Positions 4,178 to 64,000 are shown, counted from the first letter of the stretch. The stretch: 64,000 nt of DNA from an uncultured Bacilli bacterium (GCA_934167695.1 CAKPLP010000005.1:22955-86954), one strand, 5' to 3'. Translations and numbers: made by a program. The notes: generated from the letters alone by a model not told the origin.

Positions 4178-4621
4178 CTACCTAATATTAGAAAAAAAAT
4201 CATTCATTATTTTTTTTATTTCTTCAGAAAAATATCCACAACTATAATTAACTTTATTGTTGATTAAATCCTTTTCAAATATAGCTTTAATAATAATTGA
4301 ATTATTCTTATCTTTATTACTTAACCCACAATAAACGTTTTTAATTCTTGATTGTTTTATTGCACTAGCACACATAGGACAAGGCTCTAAGGTAACATAC
4401 ATATCACAATCAGATAATCTCCAATTATTCAAAATTTTTGATGCTTTTTCCACAGCCAATATTTCTGCGTGACTAATACAACAATTAGACTTTTCTTTTA
4501 AATTATAAGCTTTTGCCAAGACAACATTATCTTTTACGATGACAGCTCCAACTGGAACTTCACCCATCATAGCTGCCTTTTTTGCTTCATCGATTGCAAG
4601 TAACATATATTCTTCTTTCAT
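4178..4621 (-). CDS. tadA: tRNA-specific adenosine deaminase TadA
   Basis: CDA-fold motifs HAEILAV and PCPMCASAI. The start was moved to the ATG (MKEEY...) that follows a GGAGG RBS. The TTG-start extension in the ORF track overlaps the SRP RNA. Confidence 0.85.
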   Translation of the reverse strand: MKEEYMLLAIDEAKKAAMMGEVPVGAVIVKDNVVLAKAYNLKEKSNCCISHAEILAVEKASKILNNWRLSDCDMYVTLEPCPMCASAIKQSRIKNVYCGLSNKDKNNSIIIKAIFEKDLINNKVNYSCGYFSEEIKKIMNDFFSNIR

Positions 4622-4630
4622 TTTTCCTCC

Positions 4631-4712
4631 AAAAAAAAGTGCACATAAGTTAAATGTGTTAAGGCTGCTATCTTCCAATCCTGACCTGTTTCCACAATAA
4701 CTTATTGCACAA
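4631..4712 (-). ncRNA. ffs: signal recognition particle RNA (small 4.5S-type SRP RNA)
   Basis: The minus-strand sequence GUGCAAUAAGUUAUUGUGGAAACAGGUCAGGAUUGGAAGAUAGCAGCCUUAACACAUUUAACUUAUGUGCAC-U8 carries the conserved domain IV: CAGGUCAGG ... GGAA tetraloop ... AGCAGCC. The 5' and 3' ends pair, and a U-tract follows. Confidence 0.6.
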
Positions 4713-4759: not shown

Positions 4760-4833
4760 AAAAATATTTCCCGGGAAATATTTTTAACTCTCCGAACAAA
4801 TTCTGTGGAAAAAGTTCCACGTGGAACATTTCT
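4760..4833. repeat. composite repeat copy A: ATTTCCCGGGAAAT (4766-4779), TGTGGAAAA DnaA-box-like (4804-4812), GTTCCACGTGGAAC palindrome (4814-4827)
   Basis: Direct sequence comparison with copies B and C. Confidence 0.8.
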
Positions 4834-5689: not shown

Positions 5690-8152
5690 TTATTCAGTAA
5701 TCTCCTTTTCAACTTCTTCTAATTTATTATCTTCAGAATCATCTTTAGTAACTAACGCAATAGTTGCAACAGTTTGATCATCTCTTAAATTTATTAGTCT
5801 TACTCCCTGAGTAGCTCTCTTCAAAATAGAAATCTGATTTAATGGCATCCTTATAATAGTACCACTATTAGTAATAATCATTAAATCATTATCATTTAAA
5901 TTATCAATAGTTTTCAATGAAATTATTGAGCCGTTTTTATCGGTCATATTTAGCCCTTTAACGCCTTTACTACCTCTATGGGTTAATCTATATTCATCAA
6001 CTAAAGTTTGCTTACCATAGCCCTTTTCTGTAACAATTAAGACATATTGCTCAGGATGAACAATTTCTGCACCTATAACAACAGAATTTTCCATATCTAT
6101 TCCTTTTACTCCACTTGCAGTTCTACCCATAACTCTTACTTCATTTTCATTAAATCTAACCATACGACCATTACTTGAACCAATAATAATCTCATCATTT
6201 CCTGTAGTTTTTCTAACACTTATTAATTGATCATTCTCCTTCAAAGTAATTGCCAATTTTCCGCCATTTCTTATTCTATCAAACTCAGAAAGATCAGTTC
6301 TCTTAATTAATCCATTTTTAGTAACAAAAACTAAATACTTAATACTATCAGATTCAGTAGAAATATTTACAACAGAGTTAATTATCTCACCTTTATCTAA
6401 TGATAATAAATTAATTATAGGTAAACCTTTTGATTGTCTAGCAAATTCTGGTATTTCATATCCTTTTAATCTATAAACTTTACCCATATTAGAGAAGAAT
6501 AATATATAATCATGGGTTTTCATATTAACTAAATGCTCTACAAAATCTTCTTCATTAGTAGCCATTCCTTTAATTCCTACTCCTCCACGATTTTGAGCTT
6601 TATATACATCACTTTTAACCCTCTTAATATAACCTTTATTAGTTAAAGTAACAATAATATCATCAACAGGTATCAAAGATTCATCTTCAATATATTCAAT
6701 AGCAGTCATATCAATATTTGTTCTTCTCTCATCTGCATATTTATTTTTAATTTCTAACATTTCAGATTTTATTATATCCAAAACTTTTTGTTCACTAGCT
6801 AATATAGACCTTAATTCTTCTATTTCTGCTAATAAAGCTTGAAGTTCATTTTCAATTTTATCTCTTTCCAAGCCAGTCAATCTTCTAAGTTTCATCTCCA
6901 AAATAGCTTGTGATTGAACCTCGCTTAAATTATAAGTATTAATTAACCCATTCATAGCATCTTCATCACTCTTAGATGACTTAATTAACTTAATAATTTC
7001 ATCTATATGATCAAGAGCTATTTTTAATCCTTCTAAAATATGTGCTCTCTTTTCATCTTTTTCCAAATCAAATCTAGTACGTCTTATTACAATTTCCTTT
7101 TGATAATCAACATACTTAGAAATTATATCCTTTAATCCTAATGTTTTAGGAACACCCTGATCAAGCATTAAAAAGATTATACCAAAGTTATTTTGGAAAG
7201 CAGTATGCTTATAAAGATTATTAAGAACAACTTGAGGATTAGCATCTTTTTTCAAAGTTATAGTAATTTTAATACCATCTTTTAAATCAGTGTGGTAATC
7301 ACTAATACCCTCTATCGTTTTATTGTGAACTAATTCTGCAACCTTATTTTTTAAATCTAAAGTATTAACACCATAAGGAACTTCATCAATAATTATATAA
7401 TGCTTTCCTTTTTCTTCTTCTATTCTGGCCTTACTTCTTATAGTTATTGAACCACGACCAGTTTCATAAGCCTTTCTAATACCACTATTTCCCAAAATAG
7501 TTGCACCAGTAGGAAAATCAGGTCCCTTAATATACTGCATTAAGCCATCTAAATCGATATCAGGATTATCAATATAAGCAATACATCCATCAATTACCTC
7601 TCCTAAATTATGAGGTGGAATATTAGTAGCCATTCCTACAGCAATACCCATAGTTCCATTAACTAAAATATTAGGAAATCTTGATGGAAGAATTTCAGGT
7701 TCTTTTTCTGTTTCATCAAAATTAGGCTTAAAATTAACTGTATTTTTATTTATATCTCTCAATAATTCTAACGAAATCTTAGAAAGTCTAGATTCAGTAT
7801 AACGCATAGCTGCTGCGCCATATCCTTCTATATTACCAAAATTACCATGACCATCTACCAACATATAACGATAAGAAAAATCCTGAGCCATTCTTACCAT
7901 AGCTTCATAAATTGAACTATCACCATGTGGATGATATTTTCCCATTACATCACCAACAATTCTAGCACTTTTTTTATGAGGTTTATCTGGAGTATAACCT
8001 GATTCATACATTGAATACAAAATACGTCTATGAACAGGCTTTAAACCATCTCTAAGATCAGGTAAGGCACGTGATATTATTACACTCATAGAATACTCTA
8101 AAAATGAATCTCTAACTTCTTTTACTATATTATTTTTCTCTAATCTATCCAT
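5690..8152 (-). CDS. gyrA: DNA gyrase subunit A
   Basis: An 820-aa protein containing the RYTE(S/A)R active-site region (MRYTESRLS). It lies immediately after gyrB. Confidence 0.95.
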
Positions 8153-13061: not shown

Positions 13062-13213
13062 TTTAATTCCTTCTTTCTTATTCTATTAATATAAATTGTA
13101 TTATTATTATAGCTGTGGAAAAAGTTGAAAACTCTTCTTTTCACTTATATTATAACATATTTTTTAAAATTATCCTGTGGAAAACATTGTTGATATATAT
13201 TTTTTTCCACAAC
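13062..13213. promoter_or_regulatory. oriC: oriC, dnaA-dnaN half: DnaA boxes plus an AT-rich unwinding region
   Basis: TGTGGAAAA at about 13114 and about 13176, TTTTCCACA at about 13203, and an AT-rich run (ATATAAATTGTATTATTATTATA). Confidence 0.7.
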
Positions 13214-14575
13214 CTATTCAATATCCTTTTTTAATTTTTCTATAATATTAGCCAAATCTTTATTAACTTTTATCTCATTTTCTATTTTCTCTACAGAATG
13301 CATTACAGTAGAATGATCTTTTCCACCAAATTCTGTTCCAATCTTAGGAAATGATTCATTAGTCATGCATCTACATAAGTACATCGCAATCTGTCTTGGA
13401 AAAGCAATATTCGAACTTCTTTTTTTACTTCTAATATCTTCAACACTTATTTGGAAGAATTCAGCTACAACCTTTTGAATTCTATGAACATCATTTTTTT
13501 CACTAATTCCTTTACTAATAAAGTCTTTTAATGCCTCAATAGCTAAATTTAAAGTAATTGCAGACCCTCCCATGATAGCAGAATATGCAACAAGTCTTGT
13601 AATAGAACCCTCTAATTGTCTAACATCATTACCCATATTAGAAGCAATATATTCTATAACATCTTCTGGTATTTCCTTTTCAAAATTACCTGCAATTATT
13701 TTTCTTTTTATAATTTCTACTCTTAAATTGAAATCCGGTGGAAAAATATTAACTGTCAATCCCCAACAAAACCTTGTTCTTAAACGATCTTCCAATAACT
13801 TTAAATCATCTGGAGATCTATCTGATGATATAATAATTTGCTTAGAATCACTATATAATGTATTAAAAGTATGGAAAAATTCCTGTTGAGTCTGAGTAGC
13901 TCCACCTAAAAATTGAATATCATCAATAATTAATACATCAACATTTCTATATTTATTTTTAAAGAAATCTACATAGTTGAAATTTGTTCCATTACTATCC
14001 TTTTTATTTATACCAATAAAATCCTGAATAAATTGATCACTTGTAACATATAAAACTCTTTTATTAGAATTAGCAATTATATAATTACCAATAGCATGCA
14101 TTAAATGAGTTTTTCCAAGACCACTATTACCATATATAAATAATGGATTATACATTTTTCCGGGATTCTCAGCTACAGACAATGCTGCAGCCTGTGCAAA
14201 CTTATTACTATTACCAACAATAAAATTTTCAAATGTATATTTTGTATTTAAATTACTTTGTTCTTTATTATTATGGGGAACTCCACTAGGAATATCTTCT
14301 ACCTTAGTTTTTTTATTCTCTTCCTTAATTTCTTCCTCTAAAACAAATTCCAGCTCAAAATTTGTACCAGTAATATTATTTAATATATATTTAATTTTTT
14401 CTTCATAATTATCAGATAAATGTTTCTTATGAATAGGCATAGGTACAACAATAACAGCTTTTCCATCTTCTAATTTATATAATTTCGTATCTGCAAACCA
14501 AGTATCGTATGCAAGAGAGGAAAGTTCTTCTTTAATTTGTTTTAAAAAATTGGTCCAAAGGACCCCCATATTCAT
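13214..14575 (-). CDS. dnaA: chromosomal replication initiator DnaA
   Basis: AAA+ motif GNSGLGKTHL and a C-terminal DNA-binding domain. The start was set at MNMGVLW after a GAGGGGAG RBS. The 31-aa extension upstream in the ORF track runs into the DnaA-box array. Confidence 0.95.
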   Translation of the reverse strand: MNMGVLWTNFLKQIKEELSSLAYDTWFADTKLYKLEDGKAVIVVPMPIHKKHLSDNYEEKIKYILNNITGTNFELEFVLEEEIKEENKKTKVEDIPSGVPHNNKEQSNLNTKYTFENFIVGNSNKFAQAAALSVAENPGKMYNPLFIYGNSGLGKTHLMHAIGNYIIANSNKRVLYVTSDQFIQDFIGINKKDSNGTNFNYVDFFKNKYRNVDVLIIDDIQFLGGATQTQQEFFHTFNTLYSDSKQIIISSDRSPDDLKLLEDRLRTRFCWGLTVNIFPPDFNLRVEIIKRKIIAGNFEKEIPEDVIEYIASNMGNDVRQLEGSITRLVAYSAIMGGSAITLNLAIEALKDFISKGISEKNDVHRIQKVVAEFFQISVEDIRSKKRSSNIAFPRQIAMYLCRCMTNESFPKIGTEFGGKDHSTVMHSVEKIENEIKVNKDLANIIEKLKKDIE

Positions 14576-14927
14576 TTGACCATCTCCCCTCGAGCAATTT
14601 GTACAACAATTATAATAAAACATATTGTGGAAAAAATAAACAAAAAAATAACAATTTTTTTTCTCCACAACATTTCCACAGTTTTTTCCACATCCGAATG
14701 TTATATTCTATAATGATAAAAATCACTTTTCCACATTTTCCACAATTTTTTTATTAACAAGTTTAAAAAAGATATTCACAGCAATGTTAATTCTGTGGAA
14801 AAAGAAAAATAATCACAAAAATTAATAAATAAAAAGAATAAATTTTCTCGATAATAAAACTTTTATTTGACAAATAAAACTTTTATCCATTATAATAAGG
14901 GAGATTTATGTCTGGAGGTGGAAATTT
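14576..14927. promoter_or_regulatory. oriC: oriC, rpmH-dnaA half: array of at least 7 DnaA boxes
   Basis: TGTGGAAAA (14634), TTCTCCACA (14662), ATTTCCACA (14672), TTTTCCACA (14685, 14727, 14736), TGTGGAAAA (14794). It lies between divergent rpmH and dnaA. Confidence 0.8.
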
Positions 14928-17084: not shown

Positions 17085-18437
17085 ATGAATGATACAATAG
17101 CTGCAATATCAACAGCCTTGGGAATAGGAGCCATTTCTATAGTAAGAATGAGTGGAAAAGATGCAATTTCAATAGCAAATAAAGTTTTTAGTAAAGATTT
17201 AGAAAAAGTATCCACTCATACAATAAATTATGGATTTATTAAAGAAAATGACGAAATAATCGATGAAGTATTAGTTTCAGTAATGAAAGCTCCACATACT
17301 TACACAACAGAAGATGTAATAGAAATAAACTGTCATGGTGGTATAACAACGACAAATAAAATTCTAGAAATACTCTTAAAAAATGGTGCTCGTCTAGCAC
17401 AACCGGGGGAATTCACCAAAAGAGCATTCTTAAATGGAAGAATAGATCTGACAAAATCAGAAGCTGTAATGGATTTATTAGAAAGTAAAACAGAAACTGC
17501 TAGAAAATTAGCAATAAATTCTCTTCAAGGAAAAACAGCTTTATTAGTAGATAATTTTAGAGATAAGATAAAACAGTTAATATCATCAATAGAAGTAAAT
17601 ATAGATTATCCGGAATATTATGATATAGAAGTTATTACACTAGATAAAGTAAAACAAGAAACAACAAAAATGAAAAAAGAATTAGAAAATATAATTAAAG
17701 AAAGTGAAAATAGTAAAATAATTAAAAATGGAATAGATACTTTAATAATAGGAAGACCTAATGTTGGAAAAAGTAGTATTTTAAATAAATTCCTTGATGA
17801 AGATAAAGCAATAGTTACAGATATCGCAGGAACAACAAGAGACATTGTAGAAGGCCAAGTAATGCTCGATAATATTATTTTAAATATTATAGATACAGCA
17901 GGTATAAGACAAACAAATGATAAAGTAGAAAAAATAGGTGTAGAAAAAAGTCTATCCCTTATAGATAATGCTGATTTAGTAATTGTAGTTTTAAATAGTA
18001 ATGAAGAATTAACTAATGAAGATATAAATTTATTAGAAAAAACTAAAAATAAAAATACTATAATTGTTCTTAATAAAAATGACTTAGAAAGAAAAATAGA
18101 ATTAGACAAATTAGACGGATATAACTTAGTTAGTACAAATACCAATAATTTAGAAGGAATAAATAGTCTAAAAGAAAAGATAAAAGAAATGTTTAATTTA
18201 GAACAAATATCTACTAAAGACTATAATTATCTTACTAACGTAAGACAAATATCACTTGCAAAAAATGCTTATCAAAAACTAATAGATGTAGAAAAAGCTT
18301 TAAATGAAAATTTACCAGTAGATATGATTGAAATAGATTTGAGAGATTGTTTTGATATTCTTGGTGAAATAACTGGTAAGACATACAGTGATGAAATAAT
18401 TGATAACCTTTTTGAAAGATTCTGTGTAGGAAAGTAG
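17085..18437 (+). CDS. mnmE: tRNA modification GTPase MnmE
   Basis: G-domain motifs GRPNVGKSS and DTAG, and the C-terminal CVGK. Confidence 0.9.
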   Translation: MNDTIAAISTALGIGAISIVRMSGKDAISIANKVFSKDLEKVSTHTINYGFIKENDEIIDEVLVSVMKAPHTYTTEDVIEINCHGGITTTNKILEILLKNGARLAQPGEFTKRAFLNGRIDLTKSEAVMDLLESKTETARKLAINSLQGKTALLVDNFRDKIKQLISSIEVNIDYPEYYDIEVITLDKVKQETTKMKKELENIIKESENSKIIKNGIDTLIIGRPNVGKSSILNKFLDEDKAIVTDIAGTTRDIVEGQVMLDNIILNIIDTAGIRQTNDKVEKIGVEKSLSLIDNADLVIVVLNSNEELTNEDINLLEKTKNKNTIIVLNKNDLERKIELDKLDGYNLVSTNTNNLEGINSLKEKIKEMFNLEQISTKDYNYLTNVRQISLAKNAYQKLIDVEKALNENLPVDMIEIDLRDCFDILGEITGKTYSDEIIDNLFERFCVGK

Positions 18438-55776: not shown

Positions 55777-56511
55777 ATGATTGATTTTGTAATCTGTGAT
55801 GATAATAAAGAATTCACAATATTACTAAGAAAAAAAGTAAAACAATTTATGAGTAAATATCCAGAATTAGAATGTCAATATCATATTTTCTCTGGATATG
55901 GTAAAGAGTTTGAAAGAATAGTAGAATCTGAAAATACTTTTAAAGTATACTTTCTAGATATAGAAACTAAAAGAGGTTCTGGATTAGATGCAACCAGAAT
56001 GATCAGAGAAAAGTATGACGATTGGAACTCTATAATTATGATTGTAACATCACATGAAGAGTTCAGATATGAAGCATTAAGTAACAGATTATATTTATTT
56101 GATTTTCTAAATAAATTGAACAACTTTGACTCCAACTTAGAAGAAGACTTAAAGAACGTCTTAAAACAATATACCAGAAATAGTAAAAGTATTACTTTAG
56201 AATACGATAGAGCAATTCATAGAGTAGAACTAAGAGATATTATTTATGTAGAAAAACAAATAGATAGTAAGAAATGCATTGTAGTAACCACTTATGGTAT
56301 CAAATATGTACAATGTTCATTAAATGATATTTACAATCAACTAGATGGAGATTTCATGAAAGCAAGTAGAAGTCTAATAGTAAATATCAAAAAGATAAGA
56401 GAATATAACTCAAAGACAAATACCATTTACTTTGTAAATGAATACAAATCTAACCTAGTATCAAGAGAAAGCAAGAAGGAGTTGATGAATCGTGTTAGAA
56501 ATAATAACTAA
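55777..56511 (+). CDS. LytTR-family response regulator (AgrA-like)
   Basis: An N-terminal receiver domain (phospho-acceptor near FLDIE) and a C-terminal LytTR DNA-binding domain. Confidence 0.8.
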   Translation: MIDFVICDDNKEFTILLRKKVKQFMSKYPELECQYHIFSGYGKEFERIVESENTFKVYFLDIETKRGSGLDATRMIREKYDDWNSIIMIVTSHEEFRYEALSNRLYLFDFLNKLNNFDSNLEEDLKNVLKQYTRNSKSITLEYDRAIHRVELRDIIYVEKQIDSKKCIVVTTYGIKYVQCSLNDIYNQLDGDFMKASRSLIVNIKKIREYNSKTNTIYFVNEYKSNLVSRESKKELMNRVRNNN

Positions 56512-57826
56512 AACATTTTGTTTTGTATTAATTACAATATTATACTTCTGTATAATGAAAGGAACTCTTAATTCAAATGTAAAAATATTAAGTAAAAGAA
56601 ATTTCTTATTGCTGTTTATATTAATTATCATCGTCGCTGTATCATATACAACAGAATATTCTATACAAGCTGTAATCGTAAGAGTTATAGCAAATATTAT
56701 AGTATTCAAATTAATATTTGATGAGTCAATATATAAAACTACAGTTATATTAACATTAGCTATGATTATAAATATATTAGGAGATATTATAAACTCTGCT
56801 ATAATAATGAATTTTTATACATTAGAAGAAGTTAGAAGTCTTCCTATCGCTATGTTAATATCTAATGTTATGACAGTGTTATATTCATACATTATTTTTA
56901 GAATTAAATTTGTATCAGATAAACTAAAATTAGTAGCAAAAAATTTAAATGATAACAACATAGTTTCATCTATAATAATTTGCGCATCTATTTTTATTTT
57001 AGCAATATGTACTTTAGCAAATTTAGGTGACATTTTTACACTTAATATGTCATATTTTATAAATGTTTTAATAGTAATCGTTTTTGTAATAGTATTATTA
57101 ATATTTTTTGTTGACAATAATAAATATCAAAATTTAGTAAACCAATATGATTCACTATTTAAATATATTCAAACATTTGAAAGTAGTATGGATAAAATTA
57201 ATTTAAGTAACCATGAGTTCAAGAATGAGTTAATAATGTTAAAAAGTTACATTAAAGATGATCAAAAAGAAAAATCATTAAATATAATAAATGACATAAT
57301 TGCTGAGAATAAGAAGCAAGATAGTGCAATTTTAACTAGTTTGAAAAATTTACCAAAAGGTGGTATTAAAGGTTTATTATATTATAAAATTATTGTAGCA
57401 ATGGATAATAAATTAAAAGTCAGTCTAGATGTAAGTTCAACTATTAAAGGAAAACTAAACAACTTAGATATAGAACAATCAAAATTAATTTGTAATTTAA
57501 TAGGAATATATTTGGATAATGCGATAGAGGCATCACATGAAAGTGGTAAAAAATTAATTGGTATAGAAATATACACATTAGAAGATAAAGTTGAATTTGT
57601 TTTTTCTAATACCTTCAAAGATCAAGAAATAGATTTAGACAAGGTAGATAAAAATGGATATACAACAAAAGGAAAGAATCATGGAAGAGGTCGCTATTTA
57701 GCAAAGAGATTAATTGAAAAAAATGATTGGATTTCCTCTGAAACCAAAATAATGAACAACCTATATATTCAAAAGATTATAATAGATAAAAACAAATTAA
57801 TTAAAAGTGAAGAAAAAACAAAATAA
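56492..57826 (+). CDS. HPK10-family sensor histidine kinase (AgrC-like)
   Basis: A multi-TM N-terminus, an H-box SNHEFKN and a GHKL ATPase (GKNHGRGRYL). It overlaps the response-regulator gene. Confidence 0.75.
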   Translation: MLEIITKTFCFVLITILYFCIMKGTLNSNVKILSKRNFLLLFILIIIVAVSYTTEYSIQAVIVRVIANIIVFKLIFDESIYKTTVILTLAMIINILGDIINSAIIMNFYTLEEVRSLPIAMLISNVMTVLYSYIIFRIKFVSDKLKLVAKNLNDNNIVSSIIICASIFILAICTLANLGDIFTLNMSYFINVLIVIVFVIVLLIFFVDNNKYQNLVNQYDSLFKYIQTFESSMDKINLSNHEFKNELIMLKSYIKDDQKEKSLNIINDIIAENKKQDSAILTSLKNLPKGGIKGLLYYKIIVAMDNKLKVSLDVSSTIKGKLNNLDIEQSKLICNLIGIYLDNAIEASHESGKKLIGIEIYTLEDKVEFVFSNTFKDQEIDLDKVDKNGYTTKGKNHGRGRYLAKRLIEKNDWISSETKIMNNLYIQKIIIDKNKLIKSEEKTK

Positions 57827-57832
57827 CAATAT

Positions 57833-57869
57833 AAAAATACTATTGGCATAATTAACCAATAGTATTTTT
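57833..57869. terminator. bidirectional rho-independent terminator between the convergent sensor kinase and agrD
   Basis: A perfect 13-bp stem AAAATACTATTGG / CCAATAGTATTTT flanked by A- and T-runs. Confidence 0.7.
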
Positions 57870-57907
57870 ATAACATCAATTATATTTATAATAAGATGAA
57901 TAACATT

Positions 57908-58027
57908 TTAATCAATAAGTGATTCTAATGGCTGAGGTTCATCTGTTAAAAACATTACACACCCCATATTAGCACTTCCAACTATAAGCATTGCAACCAT
58001 TGCTATAAGTCTTGTTAATATCTTCAT
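57908..58027 (-). CDS. agrD: AgrD-like autoinducing peptide precursor (39 aa)
   Basis: Hand translation gives MKILTRLIAMVAMLIVGSANMGCVMFLTDEPQPLESLID. It has an amphipathic leader, a Cys followed by 4-5 hydrophobic residues, and an acidic DE-P tail. A GGAAGGG RBS precedes it, and it lies immediately downstream of agrB. It is not in the ORF track. Confidence 0.6.
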   Translation of the reverse strand: MKILTRLIAMVAMLIVGSANMGCVMFLTDEPQPLESLID

Positions 58028-58055
58028 ACTACCAACATCCCTTCCTATAAATTTA

Positions 58056-58685
58056 CTAAATATCATATTTAATTGATATTAAGCCATTTTTTCTTTTATA
58101 ATTTACATAATTCTTATATGGCTGTTTGAAAACCTTATAAGTTATGGGACTAACCATTACATCTTCCAAGACCACAGCATCGGTTAATAGAAGTGAAAAT
58201 CTATATTCATTTAAAAATAATGCAATAATAGTAAAAATTGTTGCTGTTGATACGGTAATAATTTTTCTAATGACTCTCTTTCTTTTATTAGGAAGAGGTC
58301 TTTTTATTGTGTCAGCGGGTGCATAAAAGAAAAGATATATAGTACCAAGTATTCCCGTTATAAATAAGACATTTTTATTAATATATAAATTTAATAGTAA
58401 AAACGGAAACATTACAAATGATAAAATGGAAACAAGTAAACACTCCCAACTTTTCTTTGCATGAAATCCAAATCCAGTAAATCTAACTATATTAAATAAT
58501 AATAATAAGATTAGCATTTCTTTAAAGATTCCAAATATAAAAGCTAATACAAATATAATAGCTGTTTTAGTGGTTGTTAAGTAAAGTCCCTCGAGTCCAT
58601 ATCTCAATTTCAACGTATCACCTTCATTGATTTTTTGATATTTGGCTATTAAATTAATAGCTCCATCCAAGAACTTCTCTTTCAT
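58056..58685 (-). CDS. agrB: AgrB-like membrane peptidase
   Basis: FGFHAKKSWECLLVSILSF...YAPADTIKRPLPNKRKR aligns with S. aureus AgrB ([23 protein letters not shown]...YAPAATKKKPIPVRLIK), including the catalytic His and Cys. Confidence 0.8.
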   Translation of the reverse strand: MKEKFLDGAINLIAKYQKINEGDTLKLRYGLEGLYLTTTKTAIIFVLAFIFGIFKEMLILLLLFNIVRFTGFGFHAKKSWECLLVSILSFVMFPFLLLNLYINKNVLFITGILGTIYLFFYAPADTIKRPLPNKRKRVIRKIITVSTATIFTIIALFLNEYRFSLLLTDAVVLEDVMVSPITYKVFKQPYKNYVNYKRKNGLISIKYDI

Positions 58686-58939: not shown

Positions 58940-59158
58940 ATGATTGGACGTGTTAAGTGGTTCAATAATGAAAAAGGGTATGGCTTTATTGAGTATAAGG
59001 AAGATGAAGATATCTTTGTTCATTATTCAGCTATTAATTCTGAAGGGTATAGATCTTTAACAGAAGGTCAGTATGTAGAATTTAAACTAATAAACACAGA
59101 CAAAGGGTTTCAAGCATTGGACGTTAATCTTGTAAAAGAACCAACTATTGCAAAATAG
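58940..59158 (+). CDS. cold-shock protein (CspA family)
   Basis: [16 protein letters not shown]1 and VHYSAI RNP2 motifs. Confidence 0.85.
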
Positions 59159-59208
59159 TGGTTTTTTTTCTGGAAAAATGTTATAATACAAGTGAGGAGG
59201 ATGATGAT

Positions 59209-59733
59209 ATGGAAATAATTATTAGAGGCGATAAAATCAAAGTTACAGATTCTATGAAAAGCTACATACAAGAGAAAATAGGAAAGCTAGAAAAATATCT
59301 AGAAAATAGTGAATCAGTTCGCGCTACTGTTGTAGTAAAAATCAGAAATATTGATCAAATCGTAGAAATTACAATCCCATTAAAATCTCTTATTTTAAGA
59401 TCAGAAGAAACACAAGATGACTTCTATAAAGCAATAGATAAAGCCGTTGATAAGTTAGAAAGACAAATTAGAAAAAATAAAACTAAAATTTCTAAACAAA
59501 ATAAAATTGATAAAGACTTTTTAATTGATGAAATAGAAGAAGATGAAGAAACTAAAGATAACATAGTAAAAAGAAAAACTGTTTCTATGAAACCAATGAA
59601 TGAAGAGGAAGCAATATTACAAATGGAACTCCTTGACCATGAATTTTATATGTATATTGATAGCGATACTAATAAGGCATCAGTAGTTTATAAAAGAAAA
59701 AATGGTGACTATGGAGTAATAACTTCAGAATAA
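59209..59733 (+). CDS. hpf: ribosome hibernation promoting factor (long HPF)
   Basis: The start MEIIIRGDKIKVTDSMKSYIQEKIGKLEKY follows a GAGGAGG RBS. Its position before secA matches yvyD-secA. Confidence 0.85.
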   Translation: MEIIIRGDKIKVTDSMKSYIQEKIGKLEKYLENSESVRATVVVKIRNIDQIVEITIPLKSLILRSEETQDDFYKAIDKAVDKLERQIRKNKTKISKQNKIDKDFLIDEIEEDEETKDNIVKRKTVSMKPMNEEEAILQMELLDHEFYMYIDSDTNKASVVYKRKNGDYGVITSE

Positions 59734-59806
59734 AAGAAAAAATTCCAAGAAGCCCTTTATTTAGGACTTCTTTTTTGATAAAATAAATAGTTAGGGAGAG
59801 ATATAA

Positions 59807-62302
59807 ATGAAAATATTAAGAAAATTATTCGATCATGAGTATAAAGAACTAAAAAGATTCTCAAAAATAGCAGATCAAGTTATGGAACTTGATGAAGAAA
59901 TGCAAAAACTTACTGATACGGAATTAAAAGCTAAAACAGAAGAGTTTAAAGAAGCTTTAAAAAATGGAAAAACATTAGATGACATTTTAGTTGAAGCCTT
60001 TGCTGTAGCACGTGAAGCAAGTTACAGAGTAATAGGTGAAAAACCATTCTACGTTCAAATACTAGGTGCTTGTGCTATCCATTACGGAAATATTTCTGAA
60101 ATGAAAACAGGTGAAGGTAAAACATTAACAAGTGTACTACCTGCCTATTTAAATGCTTTAACAGGAAAAGGTGTTCATATAATAACAGTAAATGAATATC
60201 TTGCTAGTCGTGATGCTAATTGGATGGGTGGAATTCATAGATTCTTAGGATTAACAGTAGGAGTAAACTTAAGAGAATTAACAACAAAAGAAAAGAAGGA
60301 ACAATATAATTGTGATATTCTTTATTCTACAAACAATGAAATAGGATTTGACTATCTAAGAGATAATATGGTAGTTAACAAGGAAGATCGTGTTCAAAGA
60401 CCATTAAACTTTGCCATAATTGATGAAGTTGATTCAGTTTTAATAGATGAAGCACGTACACCATTAATTATTTCCGGCGGTCAAATGAATAGTGCCAACT
60501 TATATATAGATGCAGATCGATTTGTAAAATCATTAAAAAAAGAAGAAGACTTCATTTACGATGAAAAAACAAAAAGTGTTAACCTTAATGATCAAGGAAG
60601 TGAAAAGGCTGAGAAGACTTTTCATATAAAAAATCTTTACGATATAGATAATGCAACATTATTACATTATATAAATCAAGCTTTAAGAGCAAATTATGCT
60701 ATGAGTGCTGATGTTGATTATGTTGTAAAAGACGGCGAAATAGTAATAGTAGATCAATTCACAGGTCGTCTTATGAAGGGTCGTGCTTATAGTGATGGAC
60801 TTCATCAAGCTATTGAAGCAAAAGAAGGAGTTACTATAAATGAGGAAACAAAAACTCTAGCTCAAATTACTTTCCAAAATTTATTTAGAATGTATAAAAA
60901 ATTATCTGGTATGACTGGTACAGCAAAAACAGAAGAAGAAGAATTTAGAAATATTTACAACATGTATGTAATTGAAATACCTACAAATAAAGAAGTTATC
61001 AGAATAGATGCTCCAGATTTGGTATATGCTAGTAAAGCTGCTAAATATAAAGCTATTATTAAATTTGTTAAAGAAAGATATGAAAAAGGACAACCAGTTC
61101 TTATCGGAACTATCGCAATAGAAACAAGTGAATTAATTAGTAGTATGTTAAAACAAGCCCATATACCACATGAAGTTTTAAACGCTAAAAACCATGAAAG
61201 AGAAGCTGAAATTATATCAAAAATAGGTCTACATAAATCAGTAACTATTGCAACAAACATGGCAGGACGTGGAACTGATATTAAATTATCTGATGAAATA
61301 AGAGAATTAGGTGGATTATGTGTTGTCGGAACAGAAAGACATGAATCACGTCGTATTGATAATCAGTTAAGAGGACGTTCAGGACGTCAAGGAGATCCGG
61401 GATATACTCAATTCTTTGTTTCAATGGAAGATGATTTGATGGTTCGTTTTGGTTCTGATAGAATTAAAACAATGATGGAAAGCATGGGTATTGGTGAACA
61501 AGCTATTAGAAGTAGAACTATAACAAACTCTATAGGAACTGCCCAAGCAAGAGTAGAAGGAAACAACTTTGATATTCGTAAACAACTATTACAATACGAT
61601 GATGTAATAAATAATCAAAGAGAAATAATTTACGAAAGAAGAAATAATATTCTAGATAGTGAATCTATTCATACAGAAACATTAGATACATTTAGACATC
61701 ACATTGAAGATTTAATAAACTCACATTATGTAATAGATAATGAAATAAACGATGACGATATAGATGAAATAACAGAATTTGCAAATGAAAATTTATTAAA
61801 AAAGGATATTAAAAAATCATCATTAAAATCATTAGATAAAGATGAAATTATCGATAAAATATATAAATTAGTAGTAAATGAATATGAAGAAAAAATAGGT
61901 GATATACCAGATGAAGTAAAAGATGAATTTGAAAAAGCCATAACACTTCAAGTAATTGATAATTATTGGATGGAACACATTAATACAATGGCTCATTTAA
62001 GAGAAGGAATTTATCTAAGAGGTTATGGCCAAGAAGATCCTTTACACGCCTATACAATGGAAGGATTTCAAATGTTTGATTCAATGCTTCAAAAAATCGA
62101 TAAAGACATTACTGTATTTTTACTAAAAGCAGAAATAAGAAAAAATATAGAAAGAAAAGAAATTAAAAAAGATAAAATGATGACTAATGAAGATAAAGAA
62201 ACAACATTAAAGAAGAAACCAAAAAAGGTAAAAAAAGTAGGTCGCAATGAGTTGTGTCCTTGTGGCAGTGGCAAAAAGTACAAAAACTGTTGTGGCAAAT
62301 AA
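59807..62302 (+). CDS. secA: preprotein translocase ATPase SecA
   Basis: An 831-aa protein with DEAD-like motor motifs and the C-terminal Zn finger CPCGSGKKYKNCCG. Confidence 0.95.
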   Translation: MKILRKLFDHEYKELKRFSKIADQVMELDEEMQKLTDTELKAKTEEFKEALKNGKTLDDILVEAFAVAREASYRVIGEKPFYVQILGACAIHYGNISEMKTGEGKTLTSVLPAYLNALTGKGVHIITVNEYLASRDANWMGGIHRFLGLTVGVNLRELTTKEKKEQYNCDILYSTNNEIGFDYLRDNMVVNKEDRVQRPLNFAIIDEVDSVLIDEARTPLIISGGQMNSANLYIDADRFVKSLKKEEDFIYDEKTKSVNLNDQGSEKAEKTFHIKNLYDIDNATLLHYINQALRANYAMSADVDYVVKDGEIVIVDQFTGRLMKGRAYSDGLHQAIEAKEGVTINEETKTLAQITFQNLFRMYKKLSGMTGTAKTEEEEFRNIYNMYVIEIPTNKEVIRIDAPDLVYASKAAKYKAIIKFVKERYEKGQPVLIGTIAIETSELISSMLKQAHIPHEVLNAKNHEREAEIISKIGLHKSVTIATNMAGRGTDIKLSDEIRELGGLCVVGTERHESRRIDNQLRGRSGRQGDPGYTQFFVSMEDDLMVRFGSDRIKTMMESMGIGEQAIRSRTITNSIGTAQARVEGNNFDIRKQLLQYDDVINNQREIIYERRNNILDSESIHTETLDTFRHHIEDLINSHYVIDNEINDDDIDEITEFANENLLKKDIKKSSLKSLDKDEIIDKIYKLVVNEYEEKIGDIPDEVKDEFEKAITLQVIDNYWMEHINTMAHLREGIYLRGYGQEDPLHAYTMEGFQMFDSMLQKIDKDITVFLLKAEIRKNIERKEIKKDKMMTNEDKETTLKKKPKKVKKVGRNELCPCGSGKKYKNCCGK

Positions 62303-62346
62303 CCTCGCAAATCCTTATAAAATAAGGAATTGTTAAAAAAAGAAAA

Positions 62347-62466
62347 AATAATAAATTTGTCCACAGATGACAATTTGTCCACGATTTGTCCACATAGCAT
62401 AAATAACGTGGACAGAATCGTGGAACCCCCCCATAAAAATCAATAAAAAATCTACGTGGACAATTA
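62347..62466. promoter_or_regulatory. array of six TGTCCAC-core 9-mers (3 direct, 3 inverted) with a C7 tract. Candidate DnaA-box cluster or iteron/arm-site array.
   Basis: TTGTCCACA (62347), TTGTCCACG (62365), TTGTCCACA (62376), CGTGGACAG (62397), CGTGGAAC + C7 (62409-62422), CGTGGACAA (62445), TGTGGACAT (62458). Confidence 0.45.
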
Positions 62467-62553
62467 TTGTGGACATAGTTATATAAAATGTCAGCATTCG
62501 AAATGCTGGCATTTTTCCGTTTCATTAAGTTTTATAATGAAGGAGAGATAACT

Positions 62554-62793
62554 ATGGTAAGCGTAAGAAAACTTGGAAAGGTATATGAATACCGATTTGA
62601 AATTGCTTTAACTAACATTGGCAAAATATCTTATGAAGTATTAGAAGGATTAAATTATCGTGCTGCAAGACTGGCACAGATTCCTGATGAACAATATCGT
62701 GAAATGTTTAGAAAATATGCTTCTAGTAAAACAAAAACACCACAAGAAACCGAAATGCTATTAGATAGAATTGTTGAAGGAAAAAATCAATAA
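62554..62793 (+). CDS. hypothetical small protein (79 aa from the ATG after a GGAGAG RBS)
   Basis: MVSVRKLGKVYEYRFEIALTNIGK... The N-terminus loosely resembles the KRG-K-W-YR pattern of integrase arm-type DNA-binding domains. There is no catalytic domain. Confidence 0.3.
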   Translation: MVSVRKLGKVYEYRFEIALTNIGKISYEVLEGLNYRAARLAQIPDEQYREMFRKYASSKTKTPQETEMLLDRIVEGKNQ

Positions 62794-62810
62794 CAAAAAA
62801 AGTAGATTTA

Positions 62811-63185
62811 TTGAAGCAAGATATGTATCAAAAATCTAGTGGCAAAGTGAAAGGAACTAATGAATATATGTTTACTGATAATATTGCACAAAAAAACACT
62901 CCTGTAAAAAGCCCTTATAAAAGGCAAGAAGTAATAGATATTGTTACAGGCAAGGCATTTCAAAGGCAAGCACAAACACCCTGGACAAGTAATGAAAAAG
63001 AAGAATTGATGAAACAAAGACAAGATTTAAGACGAGCTCAATTCCACAAAGAACTCAACAAATGGGTTTGGGTCAAAAGCAAGTTCCAAATTTTAATGAT
63101 ATATTTCAACAACAAAAAAGACAACAACAAATTGAGCAACAACAAATGGAAGAAGAAATGGAACATGGTATGTCAATGTAATTAA
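62811..63185 (+). CDS. hypothetical basic protein. It may be disrupted, since a better-looking continuation lies in another frame from about 63062.
   Basis: A Lys-rich, low-complexity C-terminus. The alternative frame encodes MGLGQKQVPNFNDIFQQQKRQQQIEQQQMEEEMEHGMSM. Confidence 0.2.
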   Translation: MKQDMYQKSSGKVKGTNEYMFTDNIAQKNTPVKSPYKRQEVIDIVTGKAFQRQAQTPWTSNEKEELMKQRQDLRRAQFHKELNKWVWVKSKFQILMIYFNNKKDNNKLSNNKWKKKWNMVCQCN

Positions 63186-63189
63186 GGAG

Positions 63190-63848
63190 GAAAAAATAGA
63201 AAAATTATTTGATGCTATTAGAAAAAGCAACATTGAATTAGTTAAGGGTTTAATTAGTTCAGATGCTAGTTTAGTAAATTCAATTTCAATAAAGGGATTA
63301 GAAAAAGACAATGGTCAATCCCCATTACAAGTTGCTATAAAAACCAATAATATTGATATAACAAATTATTTGATAGATAATAATGCTAATGTTAATTTTA
63401 TAGAAAAAGATTCAACTAATGAATGGAAAGCCCCTGTTATTCATGATACTTTAAGAACTGCAATTATGAATACAAGATGGAATACTTTTGATGGTAATAT
63501 AAAAGTTTTCCATACAAAAGAAGAATCAGATAAAGCATTTTCATTATTAAAAAAATTATTGATTTAGGCGCTGATGTTAACGTACACGATTCATATCATA
63601 ATTCTTGTTTAGATCGTGCTTTACTTGATTGCAGGCAAATATTACCTTATTATGATATAGAAAAAGATTTATTAAGCAAAGACAGAGTGTTAACTGATGA
63701 AATCAAAGAAGATATTTCACGAATTATCAAAATACTAATTGATAATGGTGCTGATGTTAATGAGAGAAATATTAACTCTAATAAATCTTTTAAAGAAACT
63801 GCAAACAATAGTGTAATATCTAAATGTTTAACATTTGATATAAAATAA
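63190..63848 (+). pseudogene. ankyrin-repeat protein gene interrupted by a -1 frameshift in an A7 tract (63549-63555). No canonical start codon follows its AAGGAGG RBS.
   Basis: Four ANK-like repeats (GQSPLQVAIKTNNIDITNYLIDNNANVN; LIDLGADVNVHD; LIDNGADVNERN). Removing one A from the tract restores a continuous frame (...FSLLKKLIDLGADVN...). Confidence 0.5.
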
Positions 63849-63863
63849 TGAAAGGAGGAAAAA

Positions 63864-63959
63864 ATGAAAGAGTTTAAACTAAAGGAAAATGAAATTAAGG
63901 AACTTACAACAGTTAAAGGTGGTTGTATAGCATCAGATAGAATTACTGTTGATGGATAA
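63864..63959 (+). CDS. 31-aa peptide with a double-glycine-type leader (MKEFKLKENEIKELTTVKGG) and an 11-aa core (CIASDRITVDG). Candidate bacteriocin/RiPP or pheromone precursor.
   Basis: AAAGGAGG RBS. The leader matches the ELxxVxGG pattern of Gly-Gly leaders. A new ORF begins at 63973 and runs off the window. Confidence 0.4.
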   Translation: MKEFKLKENEIKELTTVKGGCIASDRITVDG

Positions 63960-64000
63960 AAAGTCGGTTATATGTATAGAGAAAACCTTACTAACGAAGC

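What the first reader, a model, noticed from the sequence alone, without database searches (positions are those of the whole stretch)
62303..62553. Post-secA array of six TGTCCAC-core repeats with a C7 tract and a terminator-like hairpin. It may be a DnaA-box cluster, iterons or integrase arm sites.
Where Bacillus has prfB after secA, this genome has three direct TTGTCCAC(A/G) repeats at 18- and 11-bp spacing, then three inverted copies (GTGGACA), a CGTGGAAC half-site shared with the 4.7-5.6 kb array, and a C7 homopolymer. A CAGCATT / AATGCTG hairpin with a T-run follows, then a small ORF whose N-terminus faintly resembles an integrase arm-binding domain. TTGTCCACA is a one-mismatch DnaA box, so this could be a third extra-origin DnaA-box cluster. 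The direct and inverted repeat geometry plus homopolymer also fits iterons or arm-type sites of a degraded mobile element. The downstream genes (frameshifted ankyrin, Gly-Gly-leader peptide, fragmentary ORFs) look like an accessory islet.
Basis: seen in the sequence. Interest (0 to 1): 0.65.

Follow-up and report, generated by a model that had tools for sequence, protein, structure and literature searches.

The report
Relic integrase arm sites after secA
The repeat cluster after secA is the left attachment-site arm of a small mobile element that inserts into the last codons of secA. The repeats are most likely docking sites for the element's integrase, which is now broken, so this is an ordinary mobile-element scar and not a DnaA-box cluster.

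Summary
Six TGTCCAC boxes (three direct, three inverted) lie within 118 nt after secA, against 1.7 expected in the whole 64-kb window. A strong hairpin with a T-run follows.

The array belongs to a mobile element, not to the host. A near-identical contig (L002) shows a ~5.6-kb island flanked by two copies of the secA 3' end. A further pair of boxes sits ~135 nt before the second copy.

Sixty-four human-gut contigs carry the same arm after secA genes of diverse hosts. Where both segments align, host secA is 65-72% identical and the arm 95-97%. In 21 contigs the ORF after the hairpin is an intact 436-aa tyrosine integrase. The window's 79-aa ORF keeps 17 of its first 18 residues and then turns into unrelated sequence.

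Related integrases keep the geometry, an 11-bp-spaced repeat pair next to the core. The motif differs between some lineages (TTGTCAAC, TTTGTTGCCA, GTGGTCA). It stays the same in others that target a methyltransferase gene instead.

Across 56 integrase-adjacent boxes the consensus is TTT-TGTCCAC-(C/G/A), so the final A of the DnaA box is not conserved. The C7 tract and GTGGAAC half-site are strain-specific.

Verdict: relic arm-type integrase sites of a decayed secA-targeting element. The kind is known and interest is low to moderate.

The parts
62261..62302 (+). Last 13 codons of secA (SEC-C zinc motif, ...CGSGKKYKNCCGK) plus the stop codon. This is the att homology (core) segment and was most likely supplied by the element when it integrated.
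   Evidence: A second copy, matching at 36 of 42 positions, lies at L002:18046-18088. In an alignment of 65 attL copies, host-like variation gives way to a conserved sequence at ...CC(A/T)|TGTGG. At right ends, the conserved element sequence ...AAGTTCATG is followed by a host-specific secA end.
62307..62333 (+). Small AT-rich hairpin just after the secA stop codon. It resembles the first half of a host secA terminator that was carried into the element's attP.
   Evidence: Free energy is -8.9 kcal/mol and z = -5.7. It is conserved in nearly all copies. By eye it aligns with the native terminator region at the L264 right end.
62355..62393 (+). Three direct TTTGTCCAC boxes, with TGTCCAC at 62358, 62376 and 62387. 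These are the proposed P' arm-type integrase sites 1-3.
   Evidence: They sit at the same relative positions in the 64 metagenome contigs. The 11-bp-spaced pair recurs in related elements.
62408..62414 (-). Inverted box 4 (GTGGACA).
62419..62432 (.). CGTGGAAC plus the C7 tract. This is a strain-specific variant of CGAGGAAACCCC and is not a conserved functional part.
   Evidence: Present in the window and L003 only. Absent from L001, L002 and every other copy whose array was read out.
62456..62475 (-). Inverted boxes 5 and 6 (GTGGACA at 62456 and 62469, 13 bp apart), just upstream of the hairpin and the integrase start.
   Evidence: L158 has inverted copies of its own motif in the equivalent place.
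62485..62516 (.). Hairpin with a 14-bp stem followed by TTTTT. It looks like a terminator in both directions. It probably serves as the replacement terminator for secA and insulates the integrase gene from read-through.
   Evidence: -15.7 kcal/mol, z = -5.2. An equivalent hairpin precedes the integrase start in L176, where it was folded, and in L158, where it was read by eye.
62540..62606 (+). Ribosome-binding site (AAGGAGAG) and the first 18 codons of the element's integrase gene, which is truncated here.
   Evidence: 17 of 18 residues are identical to the intact 436-aa integrase. DNA identity with intact copies ends at about 62606.
62607..62793 (+). Unrelated sequence fused in frame to the integrase stub. 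It forms the rest of the 79-aa ORF.
   Evidence: No Pfam or PHROG match. No similarity to the integrase beyond residue 18.
62794..64000 (+). Interior of the decayed island: an ORF of about 120 aa, a frameshifted ankyrin-like insert and an Imm33 pseudogene. In L002 the island continues beyond the window with an AraC-type regulator, a VirD4/TraG-like ATPase, a DUF4368 fragment, an integrase C-terminal fragment, the P-arm boxes and the second secA end.
   Evidence: L002 is 99.88% identical to the window over 59001-64000.

Best explanation
The 62303-62553 segment is the P' arm of an attL site. It was left by a small integrative element (about 3-7 kb when intact) that recombines into the last ~14 codons of secA, the stretch that encodes the SEC-C zinc motif.

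On integration the element supplies a replacement secA 3' end, a stop codon and a terminator hairpin. The native secA end and its terminator are pushed to the far side of the island (attR).

The TTTGTCCAC boxes are most likely arm-type binding sites for the N-terminal domain of the element's tyrosine integrase. There are six in the P' arm and two or three in the P arm. By bridging arm sites and core, the integrase would assemble the complex that integrates and excises the element.

The integrase gene starts directly after the arm. Boxes 5 and 6 and the hairpin may therefore also limit integrase expression, as described for KplE1 IntS.

In this genome the integrase survives only as an 18-codon stub plus a C-terminal fragment, so the array is a relic.

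Shown here: the insertion, its borders, its mobility between hosts, and the link between boxes and integrase. Inferred: that the integrase N-terminal domain binds the boxes, where the crossover lies, and the roles of the hairpin.
For: 1. Insertion with att repeats. L002 is 99.88% identical to the window over 59001-64000. It carries a second secA 3' end at 18046-18088, followed by a good terminator. Just upstream lie GTGGACGG-TGTCCACAATTTGTCCAC at 17888-17912 and an integrase C-terminal fragment.

2. attP form. The viral contig L012 has boxes, about 125 nt, a SEC-C-coding fragment, more boxes, and then an integrase gene.

3. Same arm in many hosts. Sixty-four gut contigs contain the exact 24-mer. 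Most show a long secA ORF (828-926 aa), the SEC-C motif 118 nt upstream, and the six boxes at fixed positions. In the 17 contigs where both segments align, host secA is 65-72% identical to the window and the arm 95-97%.

4. Integrase. In 21 contigs the ORF after the hairpin is an intact 436-aa protein with Phage_integrase and Phage_int_SAM_3 domains. The relatives in L012 and L176 also score above threshold for PF14657 Arm-DNA-bind_4. The window ORF matches residues 1-18 at 17 of 18 positions.

5. Box retention. All 21 copies with an intact integrase keep six boxes, against 25 of 38 copies with a truncated or missing integrase start (Fisher p = 0.002).

6. Conserved geometry, variable motif. 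After secA and before the integrase gene, L176, L177, L180 and L184 have TTGTCAAC x2 at 11 bp. L158 has TTTGTTGCCA x2 at 11 bp plus inverted copies and a hairpin. L143 has GTGGTCA x3 at 17 and 11 bp.

7. Same boxes, different target. The same TGTCCAC layout sits between related integrase genes and a (uracil-5)-methyltransferase gene in L126, L131, L140, L144, L145 and L167. The gene was identified by Pfam for L140 and L167.

8. Precedent. The arrangement in which attL overlaps the integrase promoter is described for KplE1 in PMC2951348.
Against: - There are no binding data. The partner protein is inferred from adjacency and comparative patterns.
- PF14657 was not detected at E <= 0.01 in the 436-aa integrase itself, only in relatives.
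- The crossover point is not resolved. The SEC-C segment varies among both attL and attR copies, and in L218 the two copies are identical.
- No excisionase and no convincing integrase promoter were found.
- The test linking intact integrase to retained boxes is not phylogenetically independent. Some 'lost' boxes are deletions rather than point changes.
- TTGTCCAC arrays also occur in viral contigs with no integrase nearby, for example L100, so the motif is not exclusive to this role.
- L002 and L236 carry a second integrase gene or fragment next to the right arm. The island may therefore be composite.
Confidence: 0.8

Rival explanations
1. The boxes are bound by another element-encoded or host DNA-bending protein (an excisionase, a repressor or an accessory factor), not by the integrase. 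Alternatively they act mainly as an operator controlling integrase expression.
For: Boxes 5 and 6 lie just upstream of the integrase start. The KplE1 precedent shows that both the integrase and the directionality factor bind attL and repress the integrase gene. Prophage-like relatives carry XRE/ImmA-type regulator genes beside the integrase gene, judged by eye from the sequences.
Against: The smallest intact copies, such as L241 at about 3.2 kb, encode the integrase and two or three small cargo ORFs. None was recognised as an excisionase or repressor, though these ORFs were not profile-searched. The boxes also lie in the P arm, far from the integrase promoter. The same boxes accompany related integrases that differ in target and cargo. 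An operator role is compatible with integrase binding and does not replace it.
Confidence: 0.1
2. The array is a chromosomal DnaA-box cluster. Host DnaA binds the boxes to titrate DnaA or to regulate neighbouring genes.
For: TTGTCCACA differs from TTATCCACA at one position, and two of the six boxes have that 9-mer. In some viral contigs TTGTCCACA and TTATCCACA boxes are mixed in one array, for example L087, L095 and L099.
Against: All six boxes have G at position 3. None of the boxes flanking dnaA has G there; they are mostly TTTTCCACA. Of 56 integrase-adjacent boxes, only 12 have A after CAC, and the conserved flank is the 5' TTT. At the homologous position related elements carry different motifs. 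The array is 95-97% identical in hosts whose secA is only 65-72% identical, so it is not a host regulatory site.
Confidence: 0.04
3. The boxes are iterons of a replication origin belonging to an integrated plasmid-like or phage-like element.
For: The repeats are short, in direct and inverted orientation, with one 11-bp-spaced pair next to an A-rich stretch. L100 has a similar array upstream of a large ORF that looked like a primase/helicase by eye.
Against: No initiator gene was recognised among the ORFs listed for five copies read end to end: L176, L218, L236, L241 and L257. Only L176's cargo was profile-searched. The boxes flank the att core on both sides at characteristic distances. The spacing is irregular (18, 11, 21, 48, 13).
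Confidence: 0.03

Closest known systems
Arm-type (P/P') sites of heterobivalent tyrosine integrases, as in lambda Int and Tn916 Int (from my own knowledge of these systems)
   Same: A short repeated motif, distinct from the core, lies on both sides of the core. The neighbouring gene encodes a tyrosine recombinase with a small N-terminal domain (PF14657 in relatives). The element is flanked by direct repeats of the core.
   Different: The motif is TTTGTCCAC, which resembles a DnaA box. The P' arm holds three direct and three inverted copies. The target is the SEC-C-coding end of secA rather than a tRNA gene or an AT-rich site. No excisionase was identified.
KplE1 / IntS-type recombination modules, in which attL overlaps the integrase promoter (PMC2951348)
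   Same: The integrase gene abuts attL and reads away from the junction. Its upstream control region is therefore the arm that carries the integrase-binding sites, which predicts negative autoregulation.
   Different: KplE1 is a tRNA-associated prophage of E. coli. Here the elements are 3-7 kb cargo islands in gut Firmicutes. A terminator-like hairpin sits between the boxes and the integrase start, and no promoter was identified.
Integrative elements of Firmicutes that insert into the 3' ends of conserved protein genes, for example rumA-, rplL- or rpsI-targeting ICEs and IMEs of streptococci (PMC4701971 and PMC5357655 surfaced in the search by title and abstract but were not opened; the gene examples are from my own knowledge)
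   Same: Integration into the 3' end of a housekeeping gene with restoration of the reading frame. Accretion and decay are seen at the same hotspot. Relatives of this integrase family do target a (uracil-5)-methyltransferase gene.
   Different: secA does not occur in the full text of those surveys. The intact copies seen here showed no recognisable relaxase or conjugation genes, though their ORFs were mostly not profile-searched.
DnaA-box clusters of Bacillus subtilis (from my own knowledge)
   Same: A cluster of 9-mers within one mismatch of the DnaA box, outside oriC and in an intergenic region.
   Different: Only 2 of the 6 boxes are within one mismatch. The motif does not match this genome's own oriC boxes. 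The array is horizontally mobile and tied to an integrase gene.

Membership tests
Arm-type integrase-binding sites in an att site of a tyrosine-recombinase element | The element is bounded by direct repeats of a core sequence (attL and attR). | tested here: met
   The secA 3' end is duplicated: window 62261-62302 and L002:18046-18088, 36 of 42 positions identical. The same structure is seen in L176, L218, L241, L257 and L264, while in L236 only the right-end copy is on the contig.
Arm-type integrase-binding sites in an att site of a tyrosine-recombinase element | A repeated motif, distinct from the core, lies on both arms at some distance from the core. | tested here: met
   Six boxes lie 56-173 nt after the secA stop codon. 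Two or three boxes lie about 135 nt before the second core. The attP-like contig L012 has boxes on both sides of the core.
Arm-type integrase-binding sites in an att site of a tyrosine-recombinase element | The adjacent gene encodes a tyrosine recombinase with an N-terminal arm-binding domain. | tested here: inconclusive
   Intact 436-aa copies have Phage_integrase and Phage_int_SAM_3 domains. PF14657 passes its threshold in the relatives L012 and L176 but was not reported for the 436-aa protein at E <= 0.01. The N-terminal motif VYEYRFE aligns with NWEYRFE of those relatives. In the window only 18 codons remain.
Arm-type integrase-binding sites in an att site of a tyrosine-recombinase element | The sites follow the integrase lineage rather than the host or the target gene. 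| tested here: met
   The same boxes occur with related integrases at secA and at a methyltransferase gene. More distant integrases have different motifs with the same 11-bp geometry.
Arm-type integrase-binding sites in an att site of a tyrosine-recombinase element | The integrase N-terminal domain binds the boxes directly, and the boxes are required for recombination. | not testable with these tools
   This needs EMSA or footprinting and integration assays.
DnaA-box cluster | The boxes match the DnaA consensus that the host uses at oriC. | tested here: not met
   Boxes near dnaA are mostly TTTTCCACA and none has G at position 3. All six boxes here have G there, and four of the six are at least two mismatches from TTATCCACA. 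Family-wide, A follows CAC in 12 of 56 boxes.
DnaA-box cluster | It is a chromosomal feature inherited with the host lineage. | tested here: not met
   The arm is 95-97% identical in hosts whose secA is 65-72% identical.
DnaA-box cluster | DnaA occupies the site in vivo. | not testable with these tools
   This needs ChIP.
Replication-origin iterons | An initiator (Rep) gene lies next to the repeats. | tested here: not met
   No rep gene was recognised in the ORF lists of L176, L218, L236, L241 and L257. Only L176's cargo was searched against Pfam; the other four were judged by eye.
Intrinsic terminator (hairpin 62485-62516) | A stable stem-loop followed by a U-run, downstream of a gene. | tested here: met
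   The stem has 14 bp, -15.7 kcal/mol, z = -5.2, and is followed by UUUUU. The consensus scan flagged it on the minus strand only. Termination itself was not tested.

The most novel reading that the evidence does not exclude
The intact relatives of this relic may form an undescribed family of minimal integrative elements in human-gut Firmicutes. They are 3-7 kb long and carry an integrase, two box-bearing arms and a few cargo genes for defence or resistance. No excisionase, relaxase, replication gene or phage gene was recognised. They target the SEC-C-coding end of secA and move between genera by an unknown route. Their arm sites resemble DnaA boxes, so host DnaA might serve as an accessory factor.
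Probability: 0.3. Interest if true: 0.5.

Novelty: new member of a known kind. Interest (0 to 1): 0.3.

Why it matters
For this window, the result removes a candidate 'third DnaA-box cluster' and explains the accessory islet. The secA stop codon marks an integration hotspot, and the final codons of secA and its working terminator came from a mobile element.

More broadly, the same arm sits after secA in at least 64 human-gut contigs. Cargo differs between copies: HerA/Mrr/YhcG-type nucleases in L176 (confirmed by Pfam), and what looks by eye like a two-component system plus ABC transporter in L218 and L257. The secA 3' end is therefore a useful landmark for finding small cargo islands in gut Firmicutes.

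The arm motif is defined well enough to test integrase binding directly. It is also a warning that one-mismatch DnaA-box matches can be integrase sites.

Tried and rejected
- Pfam and PHROG searches of the 79-aa ORF and the neighbouring small ORFs gave nothing useful.
- Rfam found no RNA family in 62200-62700.
- The first metagenome scan, for the native secA-end/terminator junction, was meant to find an empty attB or further attR copies. It returned nothing. No empty site from a close relative was obtained. All six contigs with the identical SecA protein were grouped with L002 or L003, the two places shown, both of which carry the array.
- Literature searches for secA as an integration target and for TTGTCCAC as an integrase site found no relevant report. 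That library is incomplete, so this is not proof of absence.
- The PDB sequence search matched only catalytic and core-binding domains of tyrosine recombinases, not the N-terminal domain.
- I tried to fix the exact crossover by comparing attL and attR copies. The left edge of the homology is near TGTGG (62261-62265). The SEC-C segment varies in both attL and attR, so the crossover stays unresolved.
- The consensus scan found no convincing sigma-70 promoter for the integrase gene. The candidate TGGACA-N17-TATATA (62457-62485) is my own reading and is weak.
- Rejected: the C7 tract and GTGGAAC as functional parts, because they are strain-specific. Rejected: the Gly-Gly leader peptide, which is an Imm33 pseudogene. 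Rejected: a parS role for GTGGAAC here, since it is a half-site only and is not conserved.

Full report
**The observation.** The intergenic region after secA (secA is 59807-62302, +) holds three direct copies of (A/G)ATTTGTCCAC starting at 62354, 62372 and 62383, with spacings of 18 and 11. Three inverted copies, GTGGACA, lie at 62408, 62456 and 62469. TGTCCAC occurs nine times in the 64-kb window against 1.74 expected, and no shuffle reached nine. Six of the nine lie within 118 nt. A hairpin with a 14-bp stem (62485-62515; -15.7 kcal/mol; z = -5.2) is followed by TTTTT. CGTGGAAC (62419-62426) and a C7 run (62426-62432) are present. An ORF starts at 62554 behind a good ribosome-binding site. 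So the description is accurate.

**Context in the same organism.** Exact-protein look-ups recovered three related contigs.

- L002 is 99.88% identical to the window over 59001-64000 and extends 4.3 kb further.
- L003 is identical up to 62522, just after the hairpin's T-run, and then continues with unrelated DNA.
- L001 comes from a more distant strain and has the same array and downstream genes.

The six boxes and the hairpin are unchanged in L001 and L002. The GTGGAAC/C7 stretch, however, reads CGAGGAAAACCC in L001 and CGAGGAAACCCC in L002. Those two features are strain-specific noise.

**The region is an insertion with att repeats.** At L002:18046-18088 there is a second copy of the secA 3' end (tgtggcagcggtaaaaaatataaaaattgttgtggtaaataa). 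It matches window 62261-62302 at 36 of 42 positions. It is followed by a good terminator hairpin and then non-coding DNA to the contig end. About 135 nt upstream of it lies GTGGACGG-TGTCCACAATTTGTCCAC (L002:17888-17912). Before that lies the C-terminal half of a tyrosine recombinase gene. The ~5.6 kb in between holds decayed mobile-element genes: an Imm33 pseudogene, an AraC-type regulator, a VirD4/TraG-like ATPase, a DUF4368 fragment and a truncated integrase. The structure is therefore attL (secA end + six boxes) - island - attR (boxes + displaced native secA end with its terminator).

**The boxes accompany one integrase family.**

- A scan of viral contigs for three closely spaced TTGTCCAC returned more than 120 loci of mixed kinds.
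- Among them, the low-GC prophage-like contigs L012, L036, L040 and L041 have the boxes directly 3' of a tyrosine integrase gene. The N-terminus of that integrase reads ...PNWEYRFE....
- L012 looks like an attP: boxes, about 125 nt, a SEC-C-coding fragment (CPCGSGKKYKKCCGKA*), four more boxes, then the integrase gene.
- A genome scan with an alignment of these integrases gave 80 loci.
- In L125 the order is integrase gene, three boxes, then the 3' end of a convergent 932-aa secA ORF.
- In L126, L131, L140, L144, L145 and L167 the same box layout (TGTCCAC ... GTGGACAAAnGGTGGACAAA) sits between the integrase gene and a convergent gene. Pfam identified that gene as a (uracil-5)-methyltransferase in L140 and L167.
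- So the boxes follow the integrase, not the target gene.

**The window has the co-directional layout.**

- In L158, L176, L177 and L184 the order is secA, about 50 nt, a repeat pair at 11-bp spacing, a hairpin with a T-run, a ribosome-binding site, and an integrase gene that begins M(I/V)(S/R)I.KRG.VYQY. L180 shows the same order behind a short SEC-C-coding fragment instead of a full secA.
- This is the window's layout. The motif differs, however: TTGTCAAC in L176, L177, L180 and L184, and TTTGTTGCCA with inverted TTTGGCAACAA copies in L158. The convergent-type L143 has GTGGTCA x3 at spacings of 17 and 11.
- Conserved geometry with a lineage-specific motif is what arm-type sites predict. Host DnaA boxes would not behave this way.

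**Intact copies of the window's own element.**

- A metagenome scan for the 24-mer TTTGTCCACGATTTGTCCACATAG found 64 human-gut contigs.
- Nearly all show a long secA ORF (828-926 aa, so several host groups), the SEC-C motif 118 nt upstream, and the six boxes at fixed positions. The hairpin and start codon follow.
- In 21 contigs the ORF is a complete 436-aa protein with Phage_integrase and Phage_int_SAM_3 domains.
- The window's 79-aa ORF matches its first 18 residues at 17 positions and then diverges at about 62607. It is a truncated integrase fused to foreign sequence.
- The relatives in L012 and L176 score above threshold for PF14657 (Arm DNA-binding domain). The 436-aa protein itself did not at E <= 0.01, although its N-terminus aligns with theirs.
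- Right ends in L176, L218, L236, L241, L257 and L264 share the pair TGTCCACaattTGTCCAC, about 135 nt of conserved sequence ending ...AAGTTCATG, and then a host-specific secA end and terminator.
- Element length is 3.2-6.8 kb. Cargo varies. L176 carries a HerA-type ATPase, an Mrr-like nuclease and a YhcG nuclease. L218 and L257 carry what looks by eye like a two-component system plus an ABC transporter.

**Mobility and selection.** In the 17 contigs where both segments could be aligned, the 755 nt of secA before the core is 65-72% identical to the window, while the 304-nt arm is 95-97% identical. In 38 more contigs the arm is present but secA would not align over 400 nt, through divergence or because too little secA is on the contig. 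In an alignment of 65 attL copies, host-like variation stops at ...CC(A/T)|TGTGG and a conserved sequence follows. This places the left edge of the element's homology at window 62261-62265. The last codons of secA are thus probably element-derived. The exact crossover is not resolved, because the SEC-C segment varies in both attL and attR. All 21 copies with an intact integrase keep six boxes, against 25 of 38 with a truncated or missing start (p = 0.002). This test is not phylogenetically independent.

**Against the DnaA reading.**

- The window contains the dnaA-dnaN region. The boxes around dnaA are mostly TTTTCCACA, and none has G at position 3.
- All six boxes here have G at that position, and only two are within one mismatch of TTATCCACA.
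- Across 56 integrase-adjacent boxes from 14 loci (16 arrays), the consensus is TTT-TGTCCAC followed by C (20), G (22), A (12) or T (2). The conserved flank is therefore on the 5' side, and the final A of the DnaA box is not conserved.
- Together with the horizontal mobility, this makes a host DnaA-box cluster unlikely. Binding cannot be excluded without an experiment.

**Against iterons.** No replication gene was recognised in the ORF lists of the copies read end to end (L176, L218, L236, L241, L257). Only L176's cargo was searched against Pfam. The boxes also flank the core on both sides.

**Mechanism.** The proposed sequence has four steps.

1. The integrase binds the core within the SEC-C-coding segment through its C-terminal domains.
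2. It binds the TTTGTCCAC boxes in both arms through its N-terminal domain.
3. Bridging core and arms assembles the recombination complex.
4. Integration replaces the end of secA and its terminator. The 62485-62516 hairpin then ends secA transcripts and shields the integrase gene from read-through.

The integrase control region lies inside attL, so autoregulation of the kind shown for KplE1 IntS is plausible. All four steps and the two regulatory roles are inferences. No excisionase and no clear integrase promoter were found. In the window the system is dead, so the array is a relic. It could still serve as a landing site for related elements, as the tandem arrangements in L180 and L264 suggest.

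**Verdict.** The finding is real and is now explained. It is the attL arm of a decayed integrative element that targets secA, and the boxes are best read as arm-type integrase sites. The kind is well known. The secA target and the DnaA-box-like arm motif were not found in the literature searched, so the family may be undescribed. Interest is low to moderate.

Noticed in passing
window 4814-4827: A perfect palindrome, GTTCCACGTGGAAC, lies between the ORFs at 4178-4678 and 5690-8152 near the origin region. It looks like a parS site.
   Followed up: partly
window 13114-13211 and 14626-14802: Clusters of TTTTCCACA boxes flank the 484-aa ORF at 13214-14668 (-). I take this ORF to be dnaA from gene order. 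This appears to be the organism's preferred DnaA-box variant and marks oriC.
   Followed up: partly
window 63864-64000 (continues in L002:14056-14375): The 31-aa ORF read as a Gly-Gly leader peptide is the N-terminus of an Imm33 (PF09951) immunity-protein gene interrupted by an in-frame stop codon.
   Followed up: yes
window 63199-63848: About 650 bp of frameshifted ankyrin-like sequence is present in the window and L002. It is absent from the otherwise collinear L001, L239 and L264, so it is a recent insertion or deletion inside the island.
   Followed up: partly
L003:12717-13387: In a contig with an identical secA and array, the DNA diverges right after the hairpin's T-run (window 62522). 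It then encodes a protein of at least 215 aa with no Pfam match. The same peptide segment (GVPTPNIEPFNPGTFVEA) is fused to the integrase stub in L257.
   Followed up: partly
L176:7377-11935: An intact-looking relative of the element carries a 398-aa protein of unknown family, a HerA-type ATPase (DUF87), an Mrr-like nuclease and a YhcG/DUF1016 nuclease. This looks like anti-phage defence cargo. Its integrase gene is split into two ORFs.
   Followed up: partly
L218 and L257 (element interiors, about +740 to +6250 from the array): Copies of the element carry a response regulator, a sensor kinase and an ABC transporter ATPase plus permease. By eye these resemble a peptide-antibiotic resistance module. 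They were not tested with profiles.
   Followed up: no
L100:7627-7950; L005, L063, L072, L121: Viral contigs carry TTGTCCAC arrays with no integrase nearby. In L100, three direct and four inverted copies lie upstream of a 921-aa ORF. In the other four contigs, paired TTGTCCACATTGTCCAC units lie near terminase-like genes. Contigs such as L087, L095 and L099 mix TTATCCACA with TTGTCCACA. These are unexplained and may be true DnaA-box or origin arrays.
   Followed up: no
L236 (oriented +5234 to +6514) and L002:17127-17765: A second integrase gene (426 aa in L236, a C-terminal fragment in L002) sits directly before the right arm. This suggests that some islands are fusions of two tandem elements.
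   Followed up: partly
window 55777-58685: An agr-type quorum-sensing locus lies just upstream of the cold-shock, hibernation-factor and secA genes. It comprises a LytTR response regulator, a histidine kinase, a small peptide ORF and AgrB (Pfam labels).
   Followed up: no
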